A stretch of DNA of 6,136 nucleotides from a virus (lineage: Duplodnaviria > Heunggongvirae > Uroviricota > Caudoviricetes). The notes beneath the pieces were generated by a model. The model saw only the letters and a list, made by a program, of their open reading frames with translations, searched no databases and had not been told where the DNA came from. How positions within the stretch are numbered: position 1 is the first letter of the stretch; each line of letters begins with the position of its first letter. Positions 1 to 6,136 of the stretch are shown piece by piece. Location of the stretch: the IMG/VR virus record IMGVR_UViG_3300029073_000029; one strand, given 5' to 3'. The translations under genes and the position numbers were made by a program.

Positions 1-22
1 CGAAGGTGAGTTGATGGCTCAT
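1..22 (-). CDS. 5' end of a minus-strand ORF (MSHQLTF...) that runs off the left edge; sits where P4 beta follows gop
   Basis: ATG at 22..20 (plus-strand cat), AGAGG about 6 nt upstream, frame open to position 1. It starts 41 nt after the TGA of the 63..1082 gene. Only 7 codons are visible, so identity is unknown. Confidence 0.3.
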
Positions 23-62
23 GATGTCCCTCTGGGATGCGCTCCGGATGAATATGATGATC

Positions 63-1082
63 TCATATCAGGAACTTGTTCGCACCTTCCCTAGCAGAAC
101 GGACATCGACTGGTGTAAGGAAGAATTTATTCTTCCATTTTTGATTTTTAAATCTTGAGGATAGCCTTGCTATTAAAGATGACTTTCCATTTCCTGAACC
201 GCCTATAAGTGATAGGACTCTACTTTGAGAGCTATTTCCTCTAACATTCTCAAGATAATCCCAAACTTCTTTCTGTATATATTCGCGACCAACAAAGTCT
301 TTCGGCTGACATGGCTTATAATCCATAAAATCGTCAGCAAGAATTATTTCACTGACAATTTCCCTTTCGTAATTTTCAGATAATTTTGAAGACGAAACAG
401 TTTGTTCCGGTTCAGATAATATATAAAAATCAGTTACTTCCAACCCTTCAAAAAGCCCTTGCTCCTTTATAATATCACTTATGCGACTGACACTTGGAAT
501 TTTACTATTTTTATTTATAGCGAACGGCACCACTCTTATAGGGCTACCATTTTCAACTTCTTGCAAAAGCCAAGTCATTTCTATTTCAGGATGAACTAAA
601 AGTGTTGCACTAGTATATTTTGCCGGAATGTCATCTGTTGGAATATCCTCAACCTTACCTGTTGCAAGTATAGATATAAGAATCTCTTTTTTATCAAAAA
701 AAGAATAATCTATACGCTCATCAAGTCTATAATCCTCAAGCGTTGACTGAGCATCTTTACCCAAATCAGAAATTGAAAAAAGTGCAATTTTTTTAACTCT
801 CAACCTAAATGCTTGAGAAAATGCCAAATCAACCACAGATGAATCAACTTTTTGCTGCATGAATTTACATTCTACATACAGCTTTTCATTTGATGGTGTA
901 TGAGTAGCCTGAATATCAATTTCCATGCCAGATTTTCTGACTTCCATACCATCAATTCTATACGATTGCCGGCGGAGTATATCAGCGCAAAAATTCTCGA
1001 AAAACTTCCCTCTCGAGGTATTGGAATAATTACTAGGTACACAAACTATCAAATCTTTATTCAGTGGTAACGGCCTGGCCAT
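63..1082 (-). CDS. AT-rich cargo protein, 339 aa: N-terminal Mrr-like PD-(D/E)xK nuclease motif plus C-terminal start of an AAA_16/STAND-type P-loop NTPase that appears truncated
   Basis: Complete ORF with AAGGAG about 8 nt upstream of the ATG at 1082. Seen: GKFFENFCADILRRQSY...GMEIDIQA...KLYVECKF (hD...ExK pattern typical of Mrr_cat restriction-endonuclease domains) and FVGREYIQ...RVLSLIGGSGNGKSSLIARL (Walker A, at about 203..180) followed by only about 38 residues before TGA at 65..63. Clearly AT-rich by eye compared with flanking DNA. Position corresponds to gop in P4 (inference). Confidence 0.8.
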   Translation of the reverse strand: MARPLPLNKDLIVCVPSNYSNTSRGKFFENFCADILRRQSYRIDGMEVRKSGMEIDIQATHTPSNEKLYVECKFMQQKVDSSVVDLAFSQAFRLRVKKIALFSISDLGKDAQSTLEDYRLDERIDYSFFDKKEILISILATGKVEDIPTDDIPAKYTSATLLVHPEIEMTWLLQEVENGSPIRVVPFAINKNSKIPSVSRISDIIKEQGLFEGLEVTDFYILSEPEQTVSSSKLSENYEREIVSEIILADDFMDYKPCQPKDFVGREYIQKEVWDYLENVRGNSSQSRVLSLIGGSGNGKSSLIARLSSRFKNQKWKNKFFLTPVDVRSAREGANKFLI

Positions 1083-1097
1083 TTATACACTCCTTAT

Positions 1098-1127
1098 CTC
1101 ATATCCTTTTGACAAGTAAGATATCAA
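1098..1127 (-). promoter_or_regulatory. Candidate sigma70 promoter for the cargo gene
   Basis: On the minus strand, TTGATA (plus 1127..1122), an 18-nt spacer, then TATGAG (plus 1103..1098), just upstream of the AAGGAG RBS. Motif match only. Confidence 0.25.
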
Positions 1128-1202
1128 CCTCGAGTTTCAGAAACCAGTATCTTGCGCATATTTACGACATCAAAACTTTTGGTTATGCACCCACAGCGCG
1201 CA

Positions 1203-1221
1203 GTGCTTTCCCCGCCTCGCC
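1203..1221. other. cos: cos site: 19-nt P2/P4-type cohesive-end sequence
   Basis: Plus strand gtgctttccccgcctcgcc is the reverse complement of GGCGAGGCGGGGAAAGCAC, which I recall as the P2/P4 cohesive end. The following bases on the minus strand (TGCGCGCTG) also match my recollection of the P2 left end. It lies right after psu, as in P4. Confidence 0.7.
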
Positions 1222-1323
1222 CGCCCGCTTTGCGGGGCGGTTTTAATGCAGTTGCACTGACACGCTCAGACCGCGCCGGGAATGGTGCGGTCTGCAGAAA
1301 ATGAGGCAGGAAAACGCATGCAA

Positions 1324-1355
1324 AGCCATGCACCTTATCGATGCATGGCTTTTTT
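1324..1355. terminator. Perfect 9-bp hairpin with T-tract between psu and cos; possibly bidirectional
   Basis: AGCCATGCA (1324..1332), 9-nt loop, TGCATGGCT (1342..1350), then TTTTT (1351..1355) on the plus strand. On the minus strand the stem is preceded by A-run and followed by UUGCAUGCGUUUU, a weaker U-tract. Confidence 0.5.
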
Positions 1356-1385
1356 CAGTAAAAACGGGAGGATTTTCGGGGAATT

Positions 1386-1958
1386 TTACACAGACTGACG
1401 TGATGCCAGTTGCGCACTTTTACGCGAAAAAATCATGTTCTGCGCAGGGGTGAATTTTTCACGGCTGTCATCCACCGAAGCCGCGTCAGGCCTGAATCCG
1501 ATGGTCGTTAAAATGTCACTATCCTGTGCGGAATAATTAATTTTTTCCCCCTTCGCAAGCCAGGACAGAAGGGCTTCACGCAGGGCATCTGTGGCACGCT
1601 GTATGGCACAGTTTCGGGCAATGGCCGTCAGCTCACTGTAGCCCATCAGCTCCGGTGCCAGTGCCGCCGCCAGTGCTGTGCCGTGCTGCTGCATAAAATC
1701 ATTCAGCCGGTCGCGGATGCTGATGTGCTGAACGGCTTCATGCGAACGAATATAACGACCGGCGGCCTGATTCACCTGCCATTTTCTGACTTCGATAATA
1801 TTGCGTAATTCGTCCAGGCGACTGACGTTTCTGCCTTCTCCTGACTGAATCCGCAGATATTCCTGTTCGGCCGCAGCCAGCTCATTTTTGCGTTGCAGCC
1901 ATGCTGCTTTGTTATTCTGACAGGTGTCAAAGGCCTGCTGTAAGGCTGTGCTTTCCAT
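1386..1958 (-). CDS. psu: Psu-like protein (polarity suppression / capsid decoration), 190 aa
   Basis: Complete ORF of exactly 190 aa, the length I recall for P4 Psu. Third gene of a sid-delta-psu string, immediately upstream of cos as in P4. No distinctive motif was checked, so the call rests on size and synteny. Confidence 0.7.
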   Translation of the reverse strand: MESTALQQAFDTCQNNKAAWLQRKNELAAAEQEYLRIQSGEGRNVSRLDELRNIIEVRKWQVNQAAGRYIRSHEAVQHISIRDRLNDFMQQHGTALAAALAPELMGYSELTAIARNCAIQRATDALREALLSWLAKGEKINYSAQDSDILTTIGFRPDAASVDDSREKFTPAQNMIFSRKSAQLASRQSV

Positions 1959-2031
1959 CGTTATCTCTTTCTCATCATGCTGAAGAATAAAAATACGGTG
2001 TGCGGCGACGGCCGGTGTTAACCGGCAGCCC

Positions 2032-2532
2032 TCATTCCAGACGCAGCGAATATGATTGTGTTTTTAACCGTACTGGCGGCAGTTCCTGTTTTTCATGCAG
2101 GCTTTCTGCAAGCTCGTCCGGCGTGACCGGGCGGACAATGAAGCGGTTGATGGTCTGAAGCGTTTTAAACACCAGACCACAGCCCGGATCCGTGCACACA
2201 TAAAAACGCTCGGTGACTTCCTGAGACAGACGCCGCGATGTTCTTGACAGCGCAAGGCCTTTACATCTCCGACAACAATATCCGGTAACAAGCATTCTTT
2301 TCGGGCGCTTCATGCTGCCGGAGGCTGACGTCAGTGAATCGCGGTATCTCTGTTTGCCTGAAATGTATTCCATTCCTGAATCTTTACAGTCAGAGAAAAA
2401 GCTTTCACTCGCTTCAAATGTCGCAGAGCAATAAATATTCCGGCACTGTGCAATCATTATCTTGGTGCCATCGTCCATGAAATGTGCGCGACGGGTGTGA
2501 GCAACATGTCCACACGACGGGCAGTAAATCAT
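2032..2532 (-). CDS. delta: Delta late-gene transcriptional activator, 166 aa, with two Ogr-type zinc fingers
   Basis: Two copies of the C-X2-C-X22-C-X4-C finger characteristic of the Ogr/Delta family: CPSC...(22)...CRNIYC and CRRC...(22)...CTDPGC. Start ATG overlaps the sid stop as ATGA (plus strand 2529..2532 tcat). Length matches the 166 aa I recall for P4 Delta. Confidence 0.9.
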   Translation of the reverse strand: MIYCPSCGHVAHTRRAHFMDDGTKIMIAQCRNIYCSATFEASESFFSDCKDSGMEYISGKQRYRDSLTSASGSMKRPKRMLVTGYCCRRCKGLALSRTSRRLSQEVTERFYVCTDPGCGLVFKTLQTINRFIVRPVTPDELAESLHEKQELPPVRLKTQSYSLRLE

Positions 2533-3263
2533 GACAGCAGTCCTCTGGCCTTAAGCTTTGCTCCCTGCTGGTCTATTTTGTCCTGCCACACCTTGCGCTG
2601 TGCCGGTGTGCCTGCCACCTCATAATCCATGTGCGGGAGTGTTGCCGCTGACAGTCCGGTCAGCCGGAGAACCGGCTCGCCGGTGAGGCTGATTTGCATC
2701 TGTTTTATTTTCTGTTCCAGCGATGATTTCACCTGCTGCATGACAGCCTTTTCCGGTGCGACGTAGCCCTGATGGCCGGTGGTGTTGGCGAGCGGATTTT
2801 CCTGTACCAGGATGCTCAGATGCATTGCCCGGACAAGCGCCTCACAGGTTTCATTCAGGGCGTGTTCCAGCTCATGCTCTGCATACAGACTCAGCAGGTG
2901 ATGATGTGCCTTCCGGTAGGCGGTGGCCGTGCTGTCACACGCCCCTTTCAGGCGTTCGCGTTCAAAATTCAGCACCACGGCCAGATTGTCATATTCCTGT
3001 ACCAGCTCCCGGCGTGCCACGCGCTCAATGTGGCGCTGTTTCAGCTCGTCGCTCAGGACACCACCGGCTGCACGAAAGGCCGTGCGCCAGTCGTCAGCGT
3101 CGTTTCCGTCGGCCTGCGCCAGCGCATTTTTTTCCTGCTCTGCCCGTTCAATGGCCGTGACGGTCTCATCCATCAGGCGGGCGTTCTCAAGATGGGCGGC
3201 TCTGGCCTTTTCCAGTTGTGCCAGTGCGGGTTTCAGATATTCAGGGATAGTGTGGTCAGACAT
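2529..3263 (-). CDS. sid: Sid-like external scaffold / capsid size determination protein, 244 aa
   Basis: The ORF-track start at 3281 is a GTG. The ATG at 3263 has AGGAG about 7 nt upstream and gives 244 aa, the length I recall for P4 Sid. Helix-prone composition. First gene of the sid-delta-psu order, downstream of TGT-N12-ACA sites. Confidence 0.8.
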   Translation of the reverse strand: MSDHTIPEYLKPALAQLEKARAAHLENARLMDETVTAIERAEQEKNALAQADGNDADDWRTAFRAAGGVLSDELKQRHIERVARRELVQEYDNLAVVLNFERERLKGACDSTATAYRKAHHHLLSLYAEHELEHALNETCEALVRAMHLSILVQENPLANTTGHQGYVAPEKAVMQQVKSSLEQKIKQMQISLTGEPVLRLTGLSAATLPHMDYEVAGTPAQRKVWQDKIDQQGAKLKARGLLS

Positions 3264-3297
3264 TTTCCGGCTCCTCGTCACTTCAGGTTAAGAAAAT

Positions 3298-3353
3298 TGT
3301 GACGTACACCGGACAGCAACACGACGCATTGCAGATGTGCCAGCCCTGACACA
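3298..3353 (-). promoter_or_regulatory. Psid-like late promoter with two TGT-N12-ACA activator sites
   Basis: TGT(3298..3300)-N12-ACA(3313..3315) and TGT(3336..3338)-N12-ACA(3351..3353). The distal site is centred about 55 bp and the proximal about 17 bp upstream of a transcription start assumed near 3290. Ogr/Delta-activated P2/P4 late promoters have this element centred near -55. Confidence 0.5.
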
Positions 3354-3408
3354 GGAGACTCATCCTCACACCGGCAAGCCAGGAAAAGGTCGCAGGAAAA
3401 ACCGGCTT

Positions 3409-3577
3409 ACTGTTTGTTTTTTTATATTTTACTGTTCACCTCTGTTCACCTTAATAAAAAAGATAAGTAATACAGTAAGTTAAAGGATGAACAATCGCAG
3501 TAATGACTGTTCACCGTCTGTTCACCACTGTTCACCCGCTCATGGACTTTTTGTGCTGTTTACTACTGTTTGTTTTT
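3409..3577. other. ori: Putative replication origin with alpha-type iterons
   Basis: Five perfect direct TGTTCACC octamers at 3433..3440, 3443..3450, 3508..3515, 3519..3526 and 3529..3536, spaced about 10-11 bp, separated by an AT-rich spacer and bracketed by a 13-bp direct repeat ACTGTTTGTTTTT (3409..3421 and 3565..3577). I recall TGTTCACC as the type I iteron bound by P4 alpha at ori and crr. Confidence 0.6.
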
Positions 3578-3640
3578 ATTAATTCGCCGGGAATGAATAA
3601 GAAGAAACGATTTGTATTTCACTATAAAAATTACAAATTG

Positions 3641-3670
3641 CTTTAAGTGGCTTTAAATGACTTTAAGTGG
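3641..3670. repeat. Three tandem 10-bp repeats CTTTAA(G/A)TG(G/A)
   Basis: ctttaagtgg / ctttaaatga / ctttaagtgg, head to tail with helical-turn periodicity, about 150 bp upstream of vis. Function not determined; candidate regulator-binding array. Confidence 0.6.
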
Positions 3671-3695
3671 AAATGAACAAAAAACACACAACCAT

Positions 3696-3713
3696 TGTAA
3701 GGCTGCCGGAACA
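3696..3713 (+). promoter_or_regulatory. Candidate activator site of a PLL-like late promoter driving vis
   Basis: TGT(3696..3698)-N12-ACA(3711..3713), centred about 110 bp upstream of the vis ATG, which would place a transcription start near 3755..3760. Confidence 0.4.
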
Positions 3714-3815
3714 AATCCCCCCTGTTGCGTCTGCTGAAAATATTCACAAAATAAAGCGCTACCCGAAGCCGGACGGACTTATCCGGTGCTGTATGGACAT
3801 TAACGAGGTAGCCCG

Positions 3816-4082
3816 ATGCAAGCTGTTTTTTCTTCCCCGTCTCCCGCCCCTGTGACGCCACTGATGCCGCTGCCGGACATCACACAGGAGCGTTTTTTAC
3901 GTCTTCCGGAAGTGATGCACCTGTGCGGCCTGTCACGCTCGACCATCTATGAACTCATCCGTAAGGGGGAATTTCCGCCGCAGGTGAGTCTTGGCGGTAA
4001 AAATGTGGCCTGGCTGCACTCTGAAGTCACCGCATGGATGGCCGGCCGCATTGCCGGACGCAAACGGGGGTACGACGCATGA
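3816..4082 (+). CDS. vis: AlpA/Vis-family DNA-binding regulator (excisionase-like helix-turn-helix), 88 aa
   Basis: [51 protein letters not shown] matches the AlpA-family pattern (LP.V....G.SRST.Y.....G.FP....LG.....W...EV..W). GAGG lies 7 nt upstream of the ATG at 3816. An alternative in-frame ATG at 3864 would give 72 aa. Confidence 0.85.
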
Positions 4083-4117
4083 TGATGCCTGTTCTGCAAA
4101 AAGTCCCTTTTTCTGGC

Positions 4118-4147
4118 TTGCCTTTTTCCGGCATTTGCGGATATAGT
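4118..4147 (+). promoter_or_regulatory. Candidate sigma70 promoter (PLE-like) upstream of the immunity-like leader
   Basis: TTGCCT (4118..4123), 18-nt spacer, TATAGT (4142..4147). Motif match only. Confidence 0.35.
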
Positions 4148-4154
4148 TTTTCCG

Positions 4155-4471
4155 CTGCCGCAAAATCGGCAGCCGGGCGTGAGAACCCGTGTAACTCGAA
4201 GGCGACATATGACGCGCCATGCGTCTTTTTTTGTGTCGCAATCAACGCCACAGAGCGCCAGATTATGGTGTGGCGTGTGGTTTGCCGTGCAGGTATGATC
4301 CTGTTCGCAATCGCATGTTATGCCACTGAGTCAATGGTAGCTCAGGCGGGGCAGCCTCCGGGCTGGCCGGTATTCTTCGAGGCCGGTATTCTCACCCCCG
4401 TCTGGGCTATCGCCATCGAGCGTGAGAACTCCGGCGATAGCAGTTATTTGCTACTCGAAGGAGGCTGCCTT
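4155..4471 (+). ncRNA. Untranslated leader with repeated boxes and complementary segments; candidate cI-type immunity RNA region
   Basis: GCGTGAGAAC occurs twice (4177..4186, 4420..4429), each followed by ACTCGAAGG (4194..4202, 4453..4461; the second abuts the RBS of the 65-aa ORF). Between them, CTTCGAGG (4375..4382) and TTCTCAC (4389..4395) are complementary to those boxes, within a 12-nt direct repeat GGCCGGTATTCT (4365..4376, 4381..4392). No convincing ORF with RBS. Boundaries are approximate. Confidence 0.35.
4211..4232 (+). terminator. Short GC hairpin followed by T7; candidate intrinsic terminator within the leader
   Basis: GACGC (4211..4215), 5-nt loop, GCGTC (4221..4225), then TTTTTTT (4226..4232). 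Confidence 0.4.
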
Positions 4472-4669
4472 ATGGCTACAACCCTTACCCCCTCACACCC
4501 TGAATTTGTCTTTGTGTTTGCGGCTGTCCGTCGCGCAGACCGTCATCCCCGTATCTGCATGCTTCGCACCGTCGCCGGTGATGAACGCAGCGCCCGCCGT
4601 TCCCTTGTCCGTGACTATGTGCTCTCCCTTGCTGCCCGTCTGCCGGTGGTGGAGGTGTCCCGTGCGTAA
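4472..4669 (+). CDS. Small protein, 65 aa, first ORF after the leader (position comparable to P4 kil)
   Basis: GAAGGAGG ends about 7 nt before the ATG at 4472. It is the 3' part of the 211-aa track ORF, whose upstream portion lacks an RBS and overlaps vis and the leader. Confidence 0.55.
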
Positions 4670-4949
4670 TAAAAAAGCCCCTCAGACCGTCTCAGCACGT
4701 CATGACGCCCGTGAACACCTCAGCATTGAGGCTTACCATAAGCTCAACCGCGCCAGCGCCGTATCCCAGTTTGTTGGGGGTGATTTGATTCACCGTGAAC
4801 TCTCCGGCCTGCATCAGCTCTACATTCCGCATATTTTCAGCTACCTGAATGAAGATATTGATTTTGTGCTGAATGAGCTGAAAGCCAAAGGCCTGTGCCG
4901 CGATTTTCTCGCCCAGCAGAAAGACCGGGGAGACAGGACGCATGTTTGA
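4662..4949 (+). CDS. Small protein, 95 aa, GTG start (size compatible with P4 epsilon, not verified)
   Basis: GGAGG (4651..4655) sits 6 nt upstream of the GTG at 4662. It overlaps the stop of the 65-aa ORF by 8 nt and its own TGA (4947..4949) overlaps the next ATG. Confidence 0.6.
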
Positions 4950-5397
4950 TTTTCCCCAGCCCGGTGAGATTTACCGTTCTGCCGGTTTTCCCGATGTGGC
5001 CGTGGTCGGCATTCTGGAAGACGGTATTCCGTGGGAAATGCCGTACCGCTGCCCGGACATTGTCTGGAACCCGTACCGCCGTAAATTCAGTATCCTTGTG
5101 CGTATCCTCGATGACGGGCGCACCACAGACATCCCGCTGGGGCGTTTTCTGCGGGAATTTACCTGTGACCGTCCTGACCTGTTTAAACGCAGCCCCGTAA
5201 ACCGGCATGCGGTACTGAAAGAAATGGCCGGAGACCCGGAATTACAGAAATGGCGGGAGAAATATCTGGATATTTACCCGCAGGACACTGTTCCGGCCAG
5301 CCGGGCGGCACCGGTGGCGCGGGAATGGCGGGAAATTCCCCGCACGGAGCCTGACCCGGAAATCACCCCGGATAACAGTTACCGCAATTATCTGTAA
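4942..5397 (+). CDS. Hypothetical protein, 151 aa (same length as P4 orf151)
   Basis: Complete ORF, start overlaps the upstream stop (translational coupling), purine-rich stretch upstream. Length and position within the left operon match my recollection of P4 orf151. Confidence 0.75.
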   Translation: MFDFPQPGEIYRSAGFPDVAVVGILEDGIPWEMPYRCPDIVWNPYRRKFSILVRILDDGRTTDIPLGRFLREFTCDRPDLFKRSPVNRHAVLKEMAGDPELQKWREKYLDIYPQDTVPASRAAPVAREWREIPRTEPDPEITPDNSYRNYL

Positions 5398-5470
5398 TTA
5401 AAAAACGATACCCGAAAAATTAAATGTGCGTATTCGCGCAGGGATACGCACGTCTTCAGGAGACGCAGAT

Positions 5471-5536
5471 ATGCCTTATCAGTTAATGCAACCGGCACGG
5501 AATGCAGTCATCTGTCACAGGGAGGAAAACAAATGA
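5471..5536 (+). CDS. Possible 21-codon leader micro-ORF ([21 protein letters not shown]) coupled to the next gene
   Basis: AGGAGA (5458..5463) lies 7 nt upstream of the ATG at 5471. Its stop TGA (5534..5536) overlaps the ATG (5533..5535) of the 106-aa ORF as ATGA. Too short to judge by composition. Confidence 0.25.
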
Positions 5537-5853
5537 AAACACCCTTACCGCCCGTCTTACGCGCTGCCCTTTACCGTCGCGCTGTCGCCTGTGCCTGGCT
5601 GACCGTGTGCGAACGTCAGCACCGCTACCCGCATCTCACCCTTGAGTCACTGGAGGCGGCCATCGCCGCTGAGCTGGAAGGCTTTTATCTGCGCCAGCAC
5701 GGTGAGGAAAAAGGGCGTCAGATAGCCTGTGCCCTGCTGGAAGATTTAATGGAATCCGGCCCCCTGAAGGCCGCGCCGTCGCTGTCCTTTCTCGGGCTGG
5801 TTGTGATGGATGAACTCTGTGCCCGTCACATAAAAGCGCCGGTACTGCACTGA
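5533..5853 (+). CDS. Hypothetical protein, 106 aa, immediately upstream of the primase
   Basis: GGGAGG ends 8 nt before the ATG. Complete ORF ending 14 nt before the alpha start. Whether this or the 95-aa ORF is the epsilon (anti-repressor) equivalent cannot be decided from sequence alone. Confidence 0.75.
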
Positions 5854-5867
5854 AGGAGAACAACACC

Positions 5868-6136
5868 ATGAAAATGAACGTAACCGCCACCGTCAGCCAT
5901 GCGCTCGGCCACTGGCCGCGTATTCTCCCGGCGCTGGGGATTCAGGTGCTGAAGAACCGTCATCAGCCCTGTCCGGTCTGTGGCGGGAGTGACCGCTTCC
6001 GTTTTGATGACAGGGAGGGGCGTGGCACCTGGTACTGCAATCAGTGTGGTGCCGGTGACGGCCTGAAACTGGTTGAAAAGGTGTTTGGTGTTTCCCCGTC
6101 CGACGCGGCCGCAAAGGTGGCTGCCGTGACCGGCTG
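5868..6136 (+). CDS. alpha: Alpha-type primase/helicase replication protein, N-terminal part only (runs off the window)
   Basis: AAGGAG (5853..5858) lies 9 nt upstream of the ATG at 5868. Translation MKMNVTATVSHALGHWPRILPALGIQVLKNRHQPCPVCGGSDRFRFDDREGRGTWYCNQCGAGDGLKLVEKVFG carries a CxxC...CxxC zinc ribbon of the kind found at the N terminus of P4-type primases. No stop within the window. Confidence 0.85.
   Translation, partial: MKMNVTATVSHALGHWPRILPALGIQVLKNRHQPCPVCGGSDRFRFDDREGRGTWYCNQCGAGDGLKLVEKVFGVSPSDAAAKVAAVTG

What the first reader, a model, noticed from the sequence alone, without database searches (positions are those of the whole stretch)
3298..3713. Three TGT-N12-ACA elements in a 534-bp divergent intergenic region
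Seen: sites at 3298..3315, 3336..3353 and 3696..3713. About 0.13 would be expected by chance in this length, so three is enrichment. Established: Ogr/Delta-activated late promoters of P2/P4 carry this dyad centred near -55. Two sites are placed to serve sid, one to serve vis, giving divergent activator-dependent promoters.
Basis: partly seen in the sequence, partly recalled or inferred. Interest (0 to 1): 0.4.

Follow-up and report, generated by a model that had tools for sequence, protein, structure and literature searches.

The report
P4 satellite late promoters, Delta sites

Summary
Exact TGT-N12-ACA matches lie at 3298, 3336 and 3696, and a fourth lies at 4190. Three in the sid-vis spacer is more than chance gives: the composition-aware expectation is 0.25-0.48, not 0.13, with P about 0.002-0.013.

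Window 1222-6134 is 97.8% identical to satellite phage P4, and the spacer is 99% identical. Both sid-side sites are base-for-base P4's. The vis-side site differs from P4 only inside N12.

- **Distal sid site:** it is an exact dyad in all 22 Sid-encoding relatives and 75 P4-type contigs, at a fixed distance from a conserved -10-like CAsAAT. That places it near -55, as at the annotated P2 late promoters.
- **Proximal sid site:** it lies near -18 and overlaps the -10. It is exact only in P4-type elements.
- **Activator:** a two-finger Ogr/Delta protein is encoded in the sid operon.
- **Core promoters:** neither has a sigma-70 consensus.

Verdict: these are the known Psid and PLL Delta/Ogr sites, so interest is low. 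The site at 4190 is a chance match in the PLE leader. Side observations: the block upstream of the PLL site, which holds P4's Cox boxes, occurs as three unrelated haplotypes; an IS5 end cuts a defence gene.

The parts
3336..3353 (-). Distal Psid Delta/Ogr dyad (reads TGTGTCAGGGCTGGCACA on the sid strand). Inferred centre about -55.5.
   Evidence: Exact match and identical to P4. It is an exact TGT-N12-ACA in all 22 Sid-encoding relatives, starting 90 +/-1 nt (one at 85) before the sid ATG, with extended consensus TGTGyCA-N4-TGsCACA. Its spacing to the -10-like hexamer is gap-free and invariant in 20 distinct sequences. Only one central spacer position varies among 76 P4-type copies.
3298..3315 (-). 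Proximal Psid dyad (reads TGTCCGGTGTACGTCACA on the sid strand). Inferred centre about -17.5; its 3' ACA lies inside the -10-like CACAAT.
   Evidence: Exact match, identical to P4 and invariant in 76 P4-type copies. In the single-finger-Delta relatives the same register reads TGT-N12-AGA, a 5/6 match.
3296..3301 (-). Psid -10-like hexamer CACAAT. Inferred transcription start near 3289.
   Evidence: CA[C/G]AAT is conserved in all relatives at a fixed distance from the distal dyad. No sigma-70 consensus promoter is found here. The start itself is inferred, not mapped.
2529..3263 (-). sid (capsid size determination, 244 aa), first gene of the Psid operon.
   Evidence: 99% identical to P4 Sid. Homologues are listed.
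2032..2532 (-). delta, a 166-aa activator with two Ogr/Delta zinc fingers. Its start overlaps the sid stop by 4 nt.
   Evidence: Pfam Ogr_Delta, E = 6.8e-22, two stretches. Two CX2CX22CX4C motifs. 97.6% identical to P4 Delta.
1386..1958 (-). psu, last gene of the sid-delta-psu late operon.
   Evidence: Pfam Psu, E = 1.1e-87; matches the P4 annotation.
3696..3713 (+). PLL Delta/Ogr dyad TGTAAGGCTGCCGGAACA. Inferred centre about -55.5.
   Evidence: Exact match. P4 has TGTAAGACAGCCTGAACA at the same place, so all 3 differences lie inside N12. TGT/ACA is kept in 75 of 76 P4-type copies, with 9 spacer alleles. In distant relatives, 8 of 14 carry TGT-N11/N13-ACA at the same place and the rest are degenerate.
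3747..3753 (+). PLL -10-like CAAAATA. Inferred start near 3760. The conserved TGTTGC lies at 3723..3728.
   Evidence: The block from TTGTTGC through CACAAAATA and the leader is strongly conserved in 16 relatives. It resembles P2 PF, which has GAAAATA before its annotated start. No sigma-70 consensus is found.
3816..4082 (+). vis (orf88), an AlpA-type HTH regulator/excisionase, first gene transcribed from PLL.
   Evidence: Pfam Phage_AlpA, E = 7.3e-21. 98.9% identical to P4 ORF88.
3638..3666 (-). Three P2 Cox boxes (TTAAAGCAA, TTAAAGCCA, TTAAAGTCA), which are the P4 ori type-2 repeats. They lie about 95-120 nt upstream of the inferred PLL start.
   Evidence: Matches to the Cox-box consensus TTAAA(G/C)NC(A/C). 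The consensus and the position of Cox binding upstream of PLL come from PMC3936717.
3433..3536 (+). P4 replication origin type-1 iterons (TGTTCACC x5). They lie between the two promoters and are not part of the dyads.
   Evidence: with the P4 annotation.
4190..4207 (+). Fourth exact TGT-N12-ACA, judged a chance match in the PLE leader.
   Evidence: It is absent from P4. The ACA belongs to a conserved GGCGACA, while the TGT lies in a variable stretch. It sits downstream of the only sigma-70 consensus promoter (4118..4147) and just before a terminator-like hairpin at 4211..4225.

Best explanation
The window is part of a P4-type satellite prophage in an E. coli chromosome. The sid-vis spacer carries P4's two divergent late promoters.

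**Psid** (leftward) drives sid-delta-psu. **PLL** (rightward) drives vis and the genes beyond it. Neither has a usable sigma-70 -35/-10, so each needs a zinc-finger activator of the Ogr/Delta family: P4's own Delta, or Ogr from a P2-type helper. The activator binds a TGT-N12-ACA dyad centred about 55 bp upstream of the start. From that position it recruits RNA polymerase through the alpha subunit; this last step is established knowledge for P2/P4 and was not tested here.

- Sites 3336..3353 (Psid) and 3696..3713 (PLL) are these -55 sites.
- Site 3298..3315 is a second Delta site at about -18 of Psid, overlapping the -10. I infer that it modulates Psid once Delta has accumulated, most plausibly by limiting it, since delta lies in the operon it activates (positive feedback).

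Shown here: identity to P4, geometry, conservation, presence of the activator gene, and absence of consensus promoters. Inferred: the transcription starts, Delta occupancy, and the role of the -18 site.
For: - **Identity to P4:** 97.8% over 1222..6134 and 99% over the spacer. Both Psid dyads are identical to P4's, and the PLL dyad changes only within N12.
- **Gene order:** psu-delta-sid / vis, as in the P4 records.
- **Activator:** Delta has two Ogr_Delta fingers.
- **Core promoters:** the only sigma-70 consensus promoter in 3200..4300 is PLE at 4118..4147.
- **Conservation of the distal Psid dyad:** exact in 22 of 22 diverged relatives (Sid 57-67% identical) at -90 +/-1 from the ATG. Its distance to CA[C/G]AAT is gap-free and invariant, while the central N4 varies freely.
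- **Variation among P4-type copies:** among 76 copies, 123 of 552 spacer positions vary, yet the 18 TGT/ACA positions vary in one sequence only.
- **P2 comparison:** the P2 RefSeq record annotates activator sites and starts. The centres lie 55.5 nt from both PO and PP, 57.5 nt from PF and about 57 nt from PV. Anchoring on the -10-like hexamers gives the same geometry in the window.
- **Literature held:** Delta is an Ogr homologue, and both promote expression of P2 and P4 late genes (PMC8628076). P2 late promoters share TGT-N12-ACA (PMC3931495, citing Christie & Calendar 1985 and Julien & Calendar 1995). Ogr-type late promoters lack sigma-70 motifs (PMC5694545).
Against: - No transcript or binding data exist for this window, so the starts (3289, 3760) are inferred from -10-like hexamers and analogy.
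- Alternative -10 candidates at PLL, such as AATATT at 3739..3744, would put that dyad nearer -47.
- The footprint papers could not be retrieved. The statement that Delta protects -55 in all six promoters and -18 in Psid rests on my memory of Julien & Calendar 1995.
- The PLL dyad is poorly conserved outside P4-type elements.
- Exact TGT-N12-ACA is neither necessary nor specific in P2.
Confidence: 0.93

Rival explanations
1. The three matches are chance occurrences in a TGT/ACA-rich spacer and have no function.
For: A fourth exact match at 4190 looks like chance. P2 has five exact matches, none at a late promoter.
Against: P(>=3) is 0.002-0.013. The dyads do not overlap the iterons. The distal Psid dyad is exact at a fixed position in 22 of 22 diverged relatives. 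TGT/ACA is nearly invariant in 76 P4-type copies, while the PLL spacer has 9 alleles.
Confidence: 0.02
2. The dyads belong to the replication origin, as binding sites for the alpha primase-helicase or a host factor, rather than to promoters.
For: The P4 record's rep_origin feature (9086..9809) spans all three sites. The spacer carries the origin iterons.
Against: The annotated origin repeats are TGTTCACC and the 10-bp type-2 repeats at 3433..3536 and about 3638..3666, which are separate from the dyads. The dyads keep a fixed distance to -10-like hexamers and start codons of the flanking genes in relatives whose intervening origin sequences differ. P2 has the same dyad geometry at annotated promoters that have no origin.
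Confidence: 0.03
3. The proximal dyad (3298..3315) is not a working regulatory site. It is an exact match only because a conserved TGT happens to sit 12 nt upstream of the ACA contained in the P4-type -10 hexamer CACAAT.
For: Relatives have CAGAAT, hence TGT-N12-AGA. The site overlaps the core promoter, where an activator would be expected to hinder polymerase. The exact match is confined to one clade.
Against: All 18 positions, including N12, are invariant in 76 P4-type copies, while 22% of spacer positions vary. The upstream TGT is invariant across all relatives. 5/6 matches are bona fide sites in P2. From memory, Delta footprints a site at -18 of Psid (Julien & Calendar 1995, not retrievable here).
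Confidence: 0.2
4. The dyads are sites for a host regulator such as CRP rather than for Delta/Ogr.
For: The half-sites begin TGTGA/TGTGC, which resembles the CRP half-site TGTGA (sequence).
Against: From established knowledge, the CRP consensus is TGTGA-N6-TCACA, that is TGT-N10-ACA, not N12. The 12-nt spacing is kept without exception at the distal Psid site in 22 relatives. A cognate Ogr/Delta gene always follows sid.
Confidence: 0.02

Closest known systems
Bacteriophage P4 late promoters Psid and PLL (X51522 / NC_001609)
   Same: Same element at 97.8% identity and the same spacer at 99%. The two Psid dyads are identical. The PLL dyad is in the same position with TGT and ACA retained. The flanking genes, origin iterons and Cox boxes are the same.
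   Different: There are three substitutions inside the N12 of the PLL dyad; the window's version is the common allele among P4-type contigs (50 of 76). Rare alleles lie at 3316, next to the proximal dyad, and at 3487, in the inverted iteron. The cargo left of cos differs.
Bacteriophage P2 late promoters PP, PO, PV, PF (Ogr-dependent)
   Same: An upstream dyad centred 55.5-57.5 nt from the annotated start, no sigma-70 consensus, and activation by the same protein family. PP and PO are also divergent.
   Different: P2's sites are imperfect: TGT-N12-CCA at PO/PP and PF, and TGT-N11-ACA at PV. P2's PP and PO share one site 111 bp apart. In the window each promoter has its own site, the sites are about 360 bp apart, and an origin lies between them. 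Psid also has a second, core-overlapping site.
Psid/PLL of P4-like satellites with a single-finger Delta (L004-L024)
   Same: Exact distal Psid dyad at the same distance, the same -10-like hexamer class, the same sid-delta order, and a conserved PLL core and leader.
   Different: Delta is 67-87 aa with one finger instead of 166 aa with two. The proximal dyad is 5/6. The PLL dyad is N11/N13 or degenerate. TTTGCCA-type repeats of about 11 bp replace the Cox boxes.

Membership tests
Ogr/Delta-dependent late promoter (P2/P4 type) | Upstream element of dyad symmetry with consensus TGT-N12-ACA | tested here: met
   Exact matches at 3336..3353 (Psid) and 3696..3713 (PLL). The consensus is stated in PMC3931495.
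Ogr/Delta-dependent late promoter (P2/P4 type) | Dyad centred about 55 bp upstream of the mapped transcription start | not testable with these tools
   No transcript data exist for the window. Indirect support: the dyad centre lies 48.5 nt from the end of a conserved -10-like hexamer at Psid, with no indels in 20 distinct relatives. This matches the P2 annotated geometry of -55.5 to -57.5.
Ogr/Delta-dependent late promoter (P2/P4 type) | No functional sigma-70 -35/-10 consensus (activator-dependent core) | tested here: met
   The consensus scan of 3200..4300 finds only PLE at 4118..4147 and nothing at Psid or PLL.
Ogr/Delta-dependent late promoter (P2/P4 type) | Cognate CX2CX22CX4C zinc-finger activator available | tested here: met
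   delta at 2032..2532 matches Pfam Ogr_Delta (E = 6.8e-22, two stretches) and has two cysteine motifs.
Ogr/Delta-dependent late promoter (P2/P4 type) | Activator binding to the dyad and activator-dependent transcription | not testable with these tools
   This needs a footprint or reporter assay. The primary papers (Julien & Calendar 1995 and others) are not held.
Satellite phage P4 (the same element) | Collinear near-identity to the P4 genome across psu-delta-sid-ori-vis-cI-epsilon-orf151-orf106 | tested here: met
   97.8% over 4.9 kb, in one piece, with matching annotation. It is chromosomal in E. coli: 100% identity over 91..6136 in two genomes.
CRP-dependent promoter | TGTGA-N6-TCACA (TGT-N10-ACA) spacing | tested here: not met
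   All three dyads have N12, and the spacing is conserved in relatives. The CRP consensus is from established knowledge.

The most novel reading that the evidence does not exclude
Two things the data do not exclude and that I did not find described in the held literature.

(1) PLL may be modular. It has a conserved Delta/Ogr dyad and core, plus an upstream block of about 45 bp that is swapped as a cassette. Among otherwise about 98% identical P4-type elements this block occurs as three unrelated haplotypes: the P2 Cox-box type in 30 copies and two others in 26 and 18. Each would tune the satellite to the Cox-like protein of a different helper.

(2) The exact -18 Psid dyad and the exact PLL dyad occur only in the clade whose Delta is a tandem two-finger protein. 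They may therefore have co-evolved with the Delta duplication as an autoregulatory refinement.
Probability: 0.3. Interest if true: 0.35.

Novelty: already known. Interest (0 to 1): 0.1.

Why it matters
For the scan it matters little, because this is a correct rediscovery of the textbook P4 late-promoter architecture in a P4-type prophage that is common in E. coli.

The work does add three modest points:
- A comparative footprint shows which parts are constrained. The distal Psid dyad and its spacing to the -10 are universal, while the -18 dyad and the PLL dyad are lineage-specific.
- Exact-motif counting fails on P2 itself, which is a caution for this kind of test.
- The helper-sensing block next to the PLL dyad is polymorphic, and this could bear on helper specificity of satellites.

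Tried and rejected
- **Primary literature:** I tried to retrieve Julien & Calendar 1995, van Bokkelen 1991, Halling & Calendar 1990 and the Christie & Calendar P2 review. None is held. Several full-text searches gave only indirect statements.
- **P2 as a positive control:** I expected exact TGT-N12-ACA at the P2 late promoters. None of P2's five exact matches is there, and the annotated sites are 5/6 or N11. I therefore switched to annotated sites and starts for the geometry.
- **Fourth match at 4190..4207:** considered as a possible Delta site in the PLE leader. Rejected because it is absent from P4, its TGT lies in a variable stretch, and its ACA is part of a conserved GGCGACA next to leader hairpins.
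- **5/6 matches in the spacer:** seven were found, against about 2.6 expected from the naive per-position probability. Three lie in the iterons, and the list carries no statistical weight. TGTTGCGTCTGCTGAAAA at 3723..3740 (about -28 of PLL) is noted only as a candidate.
- **CRP reading:** rejected on spacing.
- **Half-site constraint test:** a population test within P4-type copies alone (1 of 18 half-site positions variable against 22% background) is only suggestive, with P about 0.07 by my arithmetic. The argument rests on the deeper relatives.

Full report
**Observation.** A pattern search finds exact TGT-N12-ACA at 3298..3315, 3336..3353 and 3696..3713, as reported, and a fourth at 4190..4207. 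Across the whole window, 4 matches are found against 1.32 expected, and 9 of 200 shuffles reach 4. The spacer is rich in TGT and ACA because it carries TGTTCACC iterons. Dinucleotide-preserving shuffles of 3264..3815 give 0.25 (P(>=3) = 0.002), and local trinucleotide frequencies give 0.48 (P = 0.013). The enrichment is real but weaker than claimed. The '534 bp' depends on a GTG start for sid. With the ATG used in the P4 records (244-aa Sid), the spacer is 552 bp.

**What the region is.** Window 1222..6134 matches satellite phage P4 (X51522, NC_001609) at 97.8% in one piece. On the minus strand the genes are psu (1386..1958), delta (2032..2532) and sid (2529..3263). On the plus strand they are vis/orf88 (3816..4082), followed by the immunity region, epsilon, orf151 and orf106. 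The window is chromosomal in E. coli: two complete genomes match 91..6136 at 100%. The 601-nt stretch 3240..3840 is 99% identical to P4. Both sid-side dyads are base-for-base those of P4. The vis-side dyad sits in the same place, and all three of its differences lie inside N12 (TGTAAGGCTGCCGGAACA against TGTAAGACAGCCTGAACA). The same spacer carries the P4 origin: five TGTTCACC iterons at 3433..3536, and three type-2 repeats at about 3638..3666. On the other strand the type-2 repeats read as P2 Cox boxes, TTAAA(G/C)NC(A/C) (consensus from PMC3936717). None of these overlaps the dyads.

**Geometry.** A consensus scan of 3200..4300 finds only one sigma-70-type promoter, TTGCCT-18-TATAGT at 4118..4147. 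This is P4's early promoter PLE. Nothing is found in front of sid or vis, as expected for activator-dependent promoters (PMC5694545).
- **Psid.** On the sid strand the sequence reads TGTGTCAGGGCTGGCACA-N20-TGTCCGGTGTACGTCACAAT. Taking CACAAT (3301..3296) as the -10 and A3289 as +1, the distal dyad is centred at -55.5 and the proximal one at -17.5. The proximal dyad's 3' ACA then lies inside the -10.
- **PLL.** On the vis side, CAAAATA at 3747..3753 resembles the GAAAATA that precedes the annotated start of P2 PF. With +1 at 3760, the dyad is centred at -55.5.
- **P2 yardstick.** The P2 RefSeq record annotates both activator sites and transcription starts. The shared PO/PP site is centred 55.5 nt from both starts, the PF site lies at -57.5, and the PV site at about -57.

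The window's starts are inferred, not mapped. At PLL another -10 candidate (AATATT, 3739..3744) would shift the dyad to about -47.

**Comparative evidence.** I collected 22 Sid-encoding loci from species-representative genomes: one is P4-type and 21 have Sid only 57-67% identical.
- **Distal Psid dyad.** In every locus it is an exact TGT-N12-ACA starting 90 +/-1 nt (one at 85) before the sid ATG. The extended consensus is TGTGyCA-N4-TGsCACA, and the central four bases vary freely. Anchored on the dyad with no gaps, the -10-like CA[C/G]AAT lies at an identical distance in all 20 distinct sequences.
- **Proximal dyad.** It is exact only in P4-type elements. The others read TGT-N12-AGA because their -10 is CAGAAT, although the upstream TGT is invariant.
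- **PLL dyad.** The core (TTGTTGC ... CACAAAATA) and the leader are strongly conserved. The dyad itself is exact only in P4-type elements. Of 14 distant relatives, 8 have TGT-N11/N13-ACA at the same place (P2 PV is also N11) and the rest are degenerate.
- **Link to the activator.** P4-type elements encode the 166-aa two-finger Delta, whereas all the relatives encode a 67-87-aa single-finger protein immediately after sid. This is one clade against another, so it counts as a single evolutionary event.

**Population evidence.** Seventy-five P4-type contigs from IMG/VR plus the window give 66 distinct spacers, and 123 of 552 positions vary. The proximal dyad is invariant, and the distal dyad varies at one central position. 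The PLL dyad keeps TGT and ACA in 75 of 76 copies while showing nine N12 alleles. This is the pattern expected if the outer triplets, and at Psid the extended half-sites, are what the protein reads.

**Mechanism.** The held literature supports three points. Delta is an Ogr homologue, and both promote expression of the late genes of P2 and P4 (PMC8628076). P2 late promoters share TGT-N12-ACA (PMC3931495). P2 Cox activates PLL from sites upstream of it (PMC3936717). From my own knowledge, which I could not check here, Julien & Calendar (1995) footprinted Delta at about -55 on all six P2/P4 late promoters and at a second site near -18 in Psid. Also from my own knowledge, Ogr/Delta act through the C-terminal domain of the RNA polymerase alpha subunit.

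The best reading is therefore that 3336..3353 and 3696..3713 are the -55 activator sites of Psid and PLL. Site 3298..3315 is a second, core-overlapping Delta site of Psid. Because delta lies within the Psid operon and overlaps the sid stop by 4 nt, activation is self-reinforcing. I infer that the -18 site most plausibly tempers this loop, but that role is not shown.

**The fourth match.** The site at 4190..4207 lies in the PLE leader, between conserved hairpins and just before a terminator-like hairpin at 4211..4225. P4 lacks it. Its ACA belongs to a conserved GGCGACA and its TGT falls in a variable stretch. I treat it as chance.

**A caution on the method.** P2 has five exact TGT-N12-ACA matches (8.2 expected) and none is at a late promoter. 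Its real sites are 5/6 or N11 variants.

**Verdict.** The refinements are that one sid site is at -18 rather than -55, and that the spacer also holds the origin and the Cox boxes. The feature is already known, so interest is low.

Noticed in passing
window 3630..3675; L028-L102 at the equivalent place: The block of about 45 bp just upstream of the PLL dyad (P4 ori type-2 repeats, which are the P2 Cox boxes) occurs as three unrelated haplotypes among otherwise about 98% identical P4-type elements. Type A is GCTTTAAGTGGCTTTAAATGACTTTAAGTGG (30 copies, including the window and P4). Type B is ..TCCAGCTCCTTCCAGAGCGTTTTAAAGC.. (26 copies). Type C is ..TCCAGGTCCTTCAGAACCCTTTGAGACCCTTCCAGTCC.. (18 copies, with boxes at a 10-bp period). 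This looks like a cassette swap of a helper-responsive element.
   Followed up: partly
L004-L024, about 100-170 nt upstream of vis: Distant P4-like relatives carry repeats of the TTTGCCA / GGGCCA type at a period of about 11 bp where P4 has its Cox boxes. They may be binding sites for a different helper protein, or origin repeats.
   Followed up: no
window 1..1082: The minus-strand ORF at 63..1082 has an Mrr_cat nuclease domain and the start of an nSTAND1 NTPase with a Walker A motif. In E. coli EC1722-1 the intact gene encodes a 913-aa nSTAND1 NTPase in the psu-int hotspot. In the window it is cut by an IS5-family end at 1..96 (insH match; the matches in E. coli genomes start at 91). Mrr_cat-STAND proteins are reported in this P4 defence hotspot (PMC9122126).
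   Followed up: partly
window about 1188..1268: A short stretch, 90-93% identical to P2-type phages, lies at the point where the P4 record ends at its cohesive terminus (window 1222 corresponds to P4 11624). It is therefore the cos region shared with the helper.
   Followed up: no
window 3487: The single inverted type-1 origin iteron reads GATGAACA in the window. It reads GGTGAACA in P4 and in 64 of 65 other distinct P4-type spacers. This is a rare allele in an alpha-protein binding repeat.
   Followed up: no
window 3316: G3316, immediately next to the proximal Psid dyad (about -27 of Psid), is a rare allele: 62 of 65 other distinct P4-type spacers differ, and P4 has A. It changes TGTTGT to TGTTGC, the hexamer that is conserved at PLL.
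   Followed up: no
window 4118..4230: This stretch holds the PLE promoter (TTGCCT-18-TATAGT, 4118..4147), then conserved leader hairpins and a terminator-like hairpin at 4211..4225 with a T run. Downstream of the T run the window follows the P4 immunity type. The otherwise near-identical L003 carries a different sequence there.
   Followed up: no
L025 (P2 genome): None of P2's five exact TGT-N12-ACA matches coincides with its four annotated late-promoter activator sites, which are 5/6 or N11 variants.
   Followed up: yes
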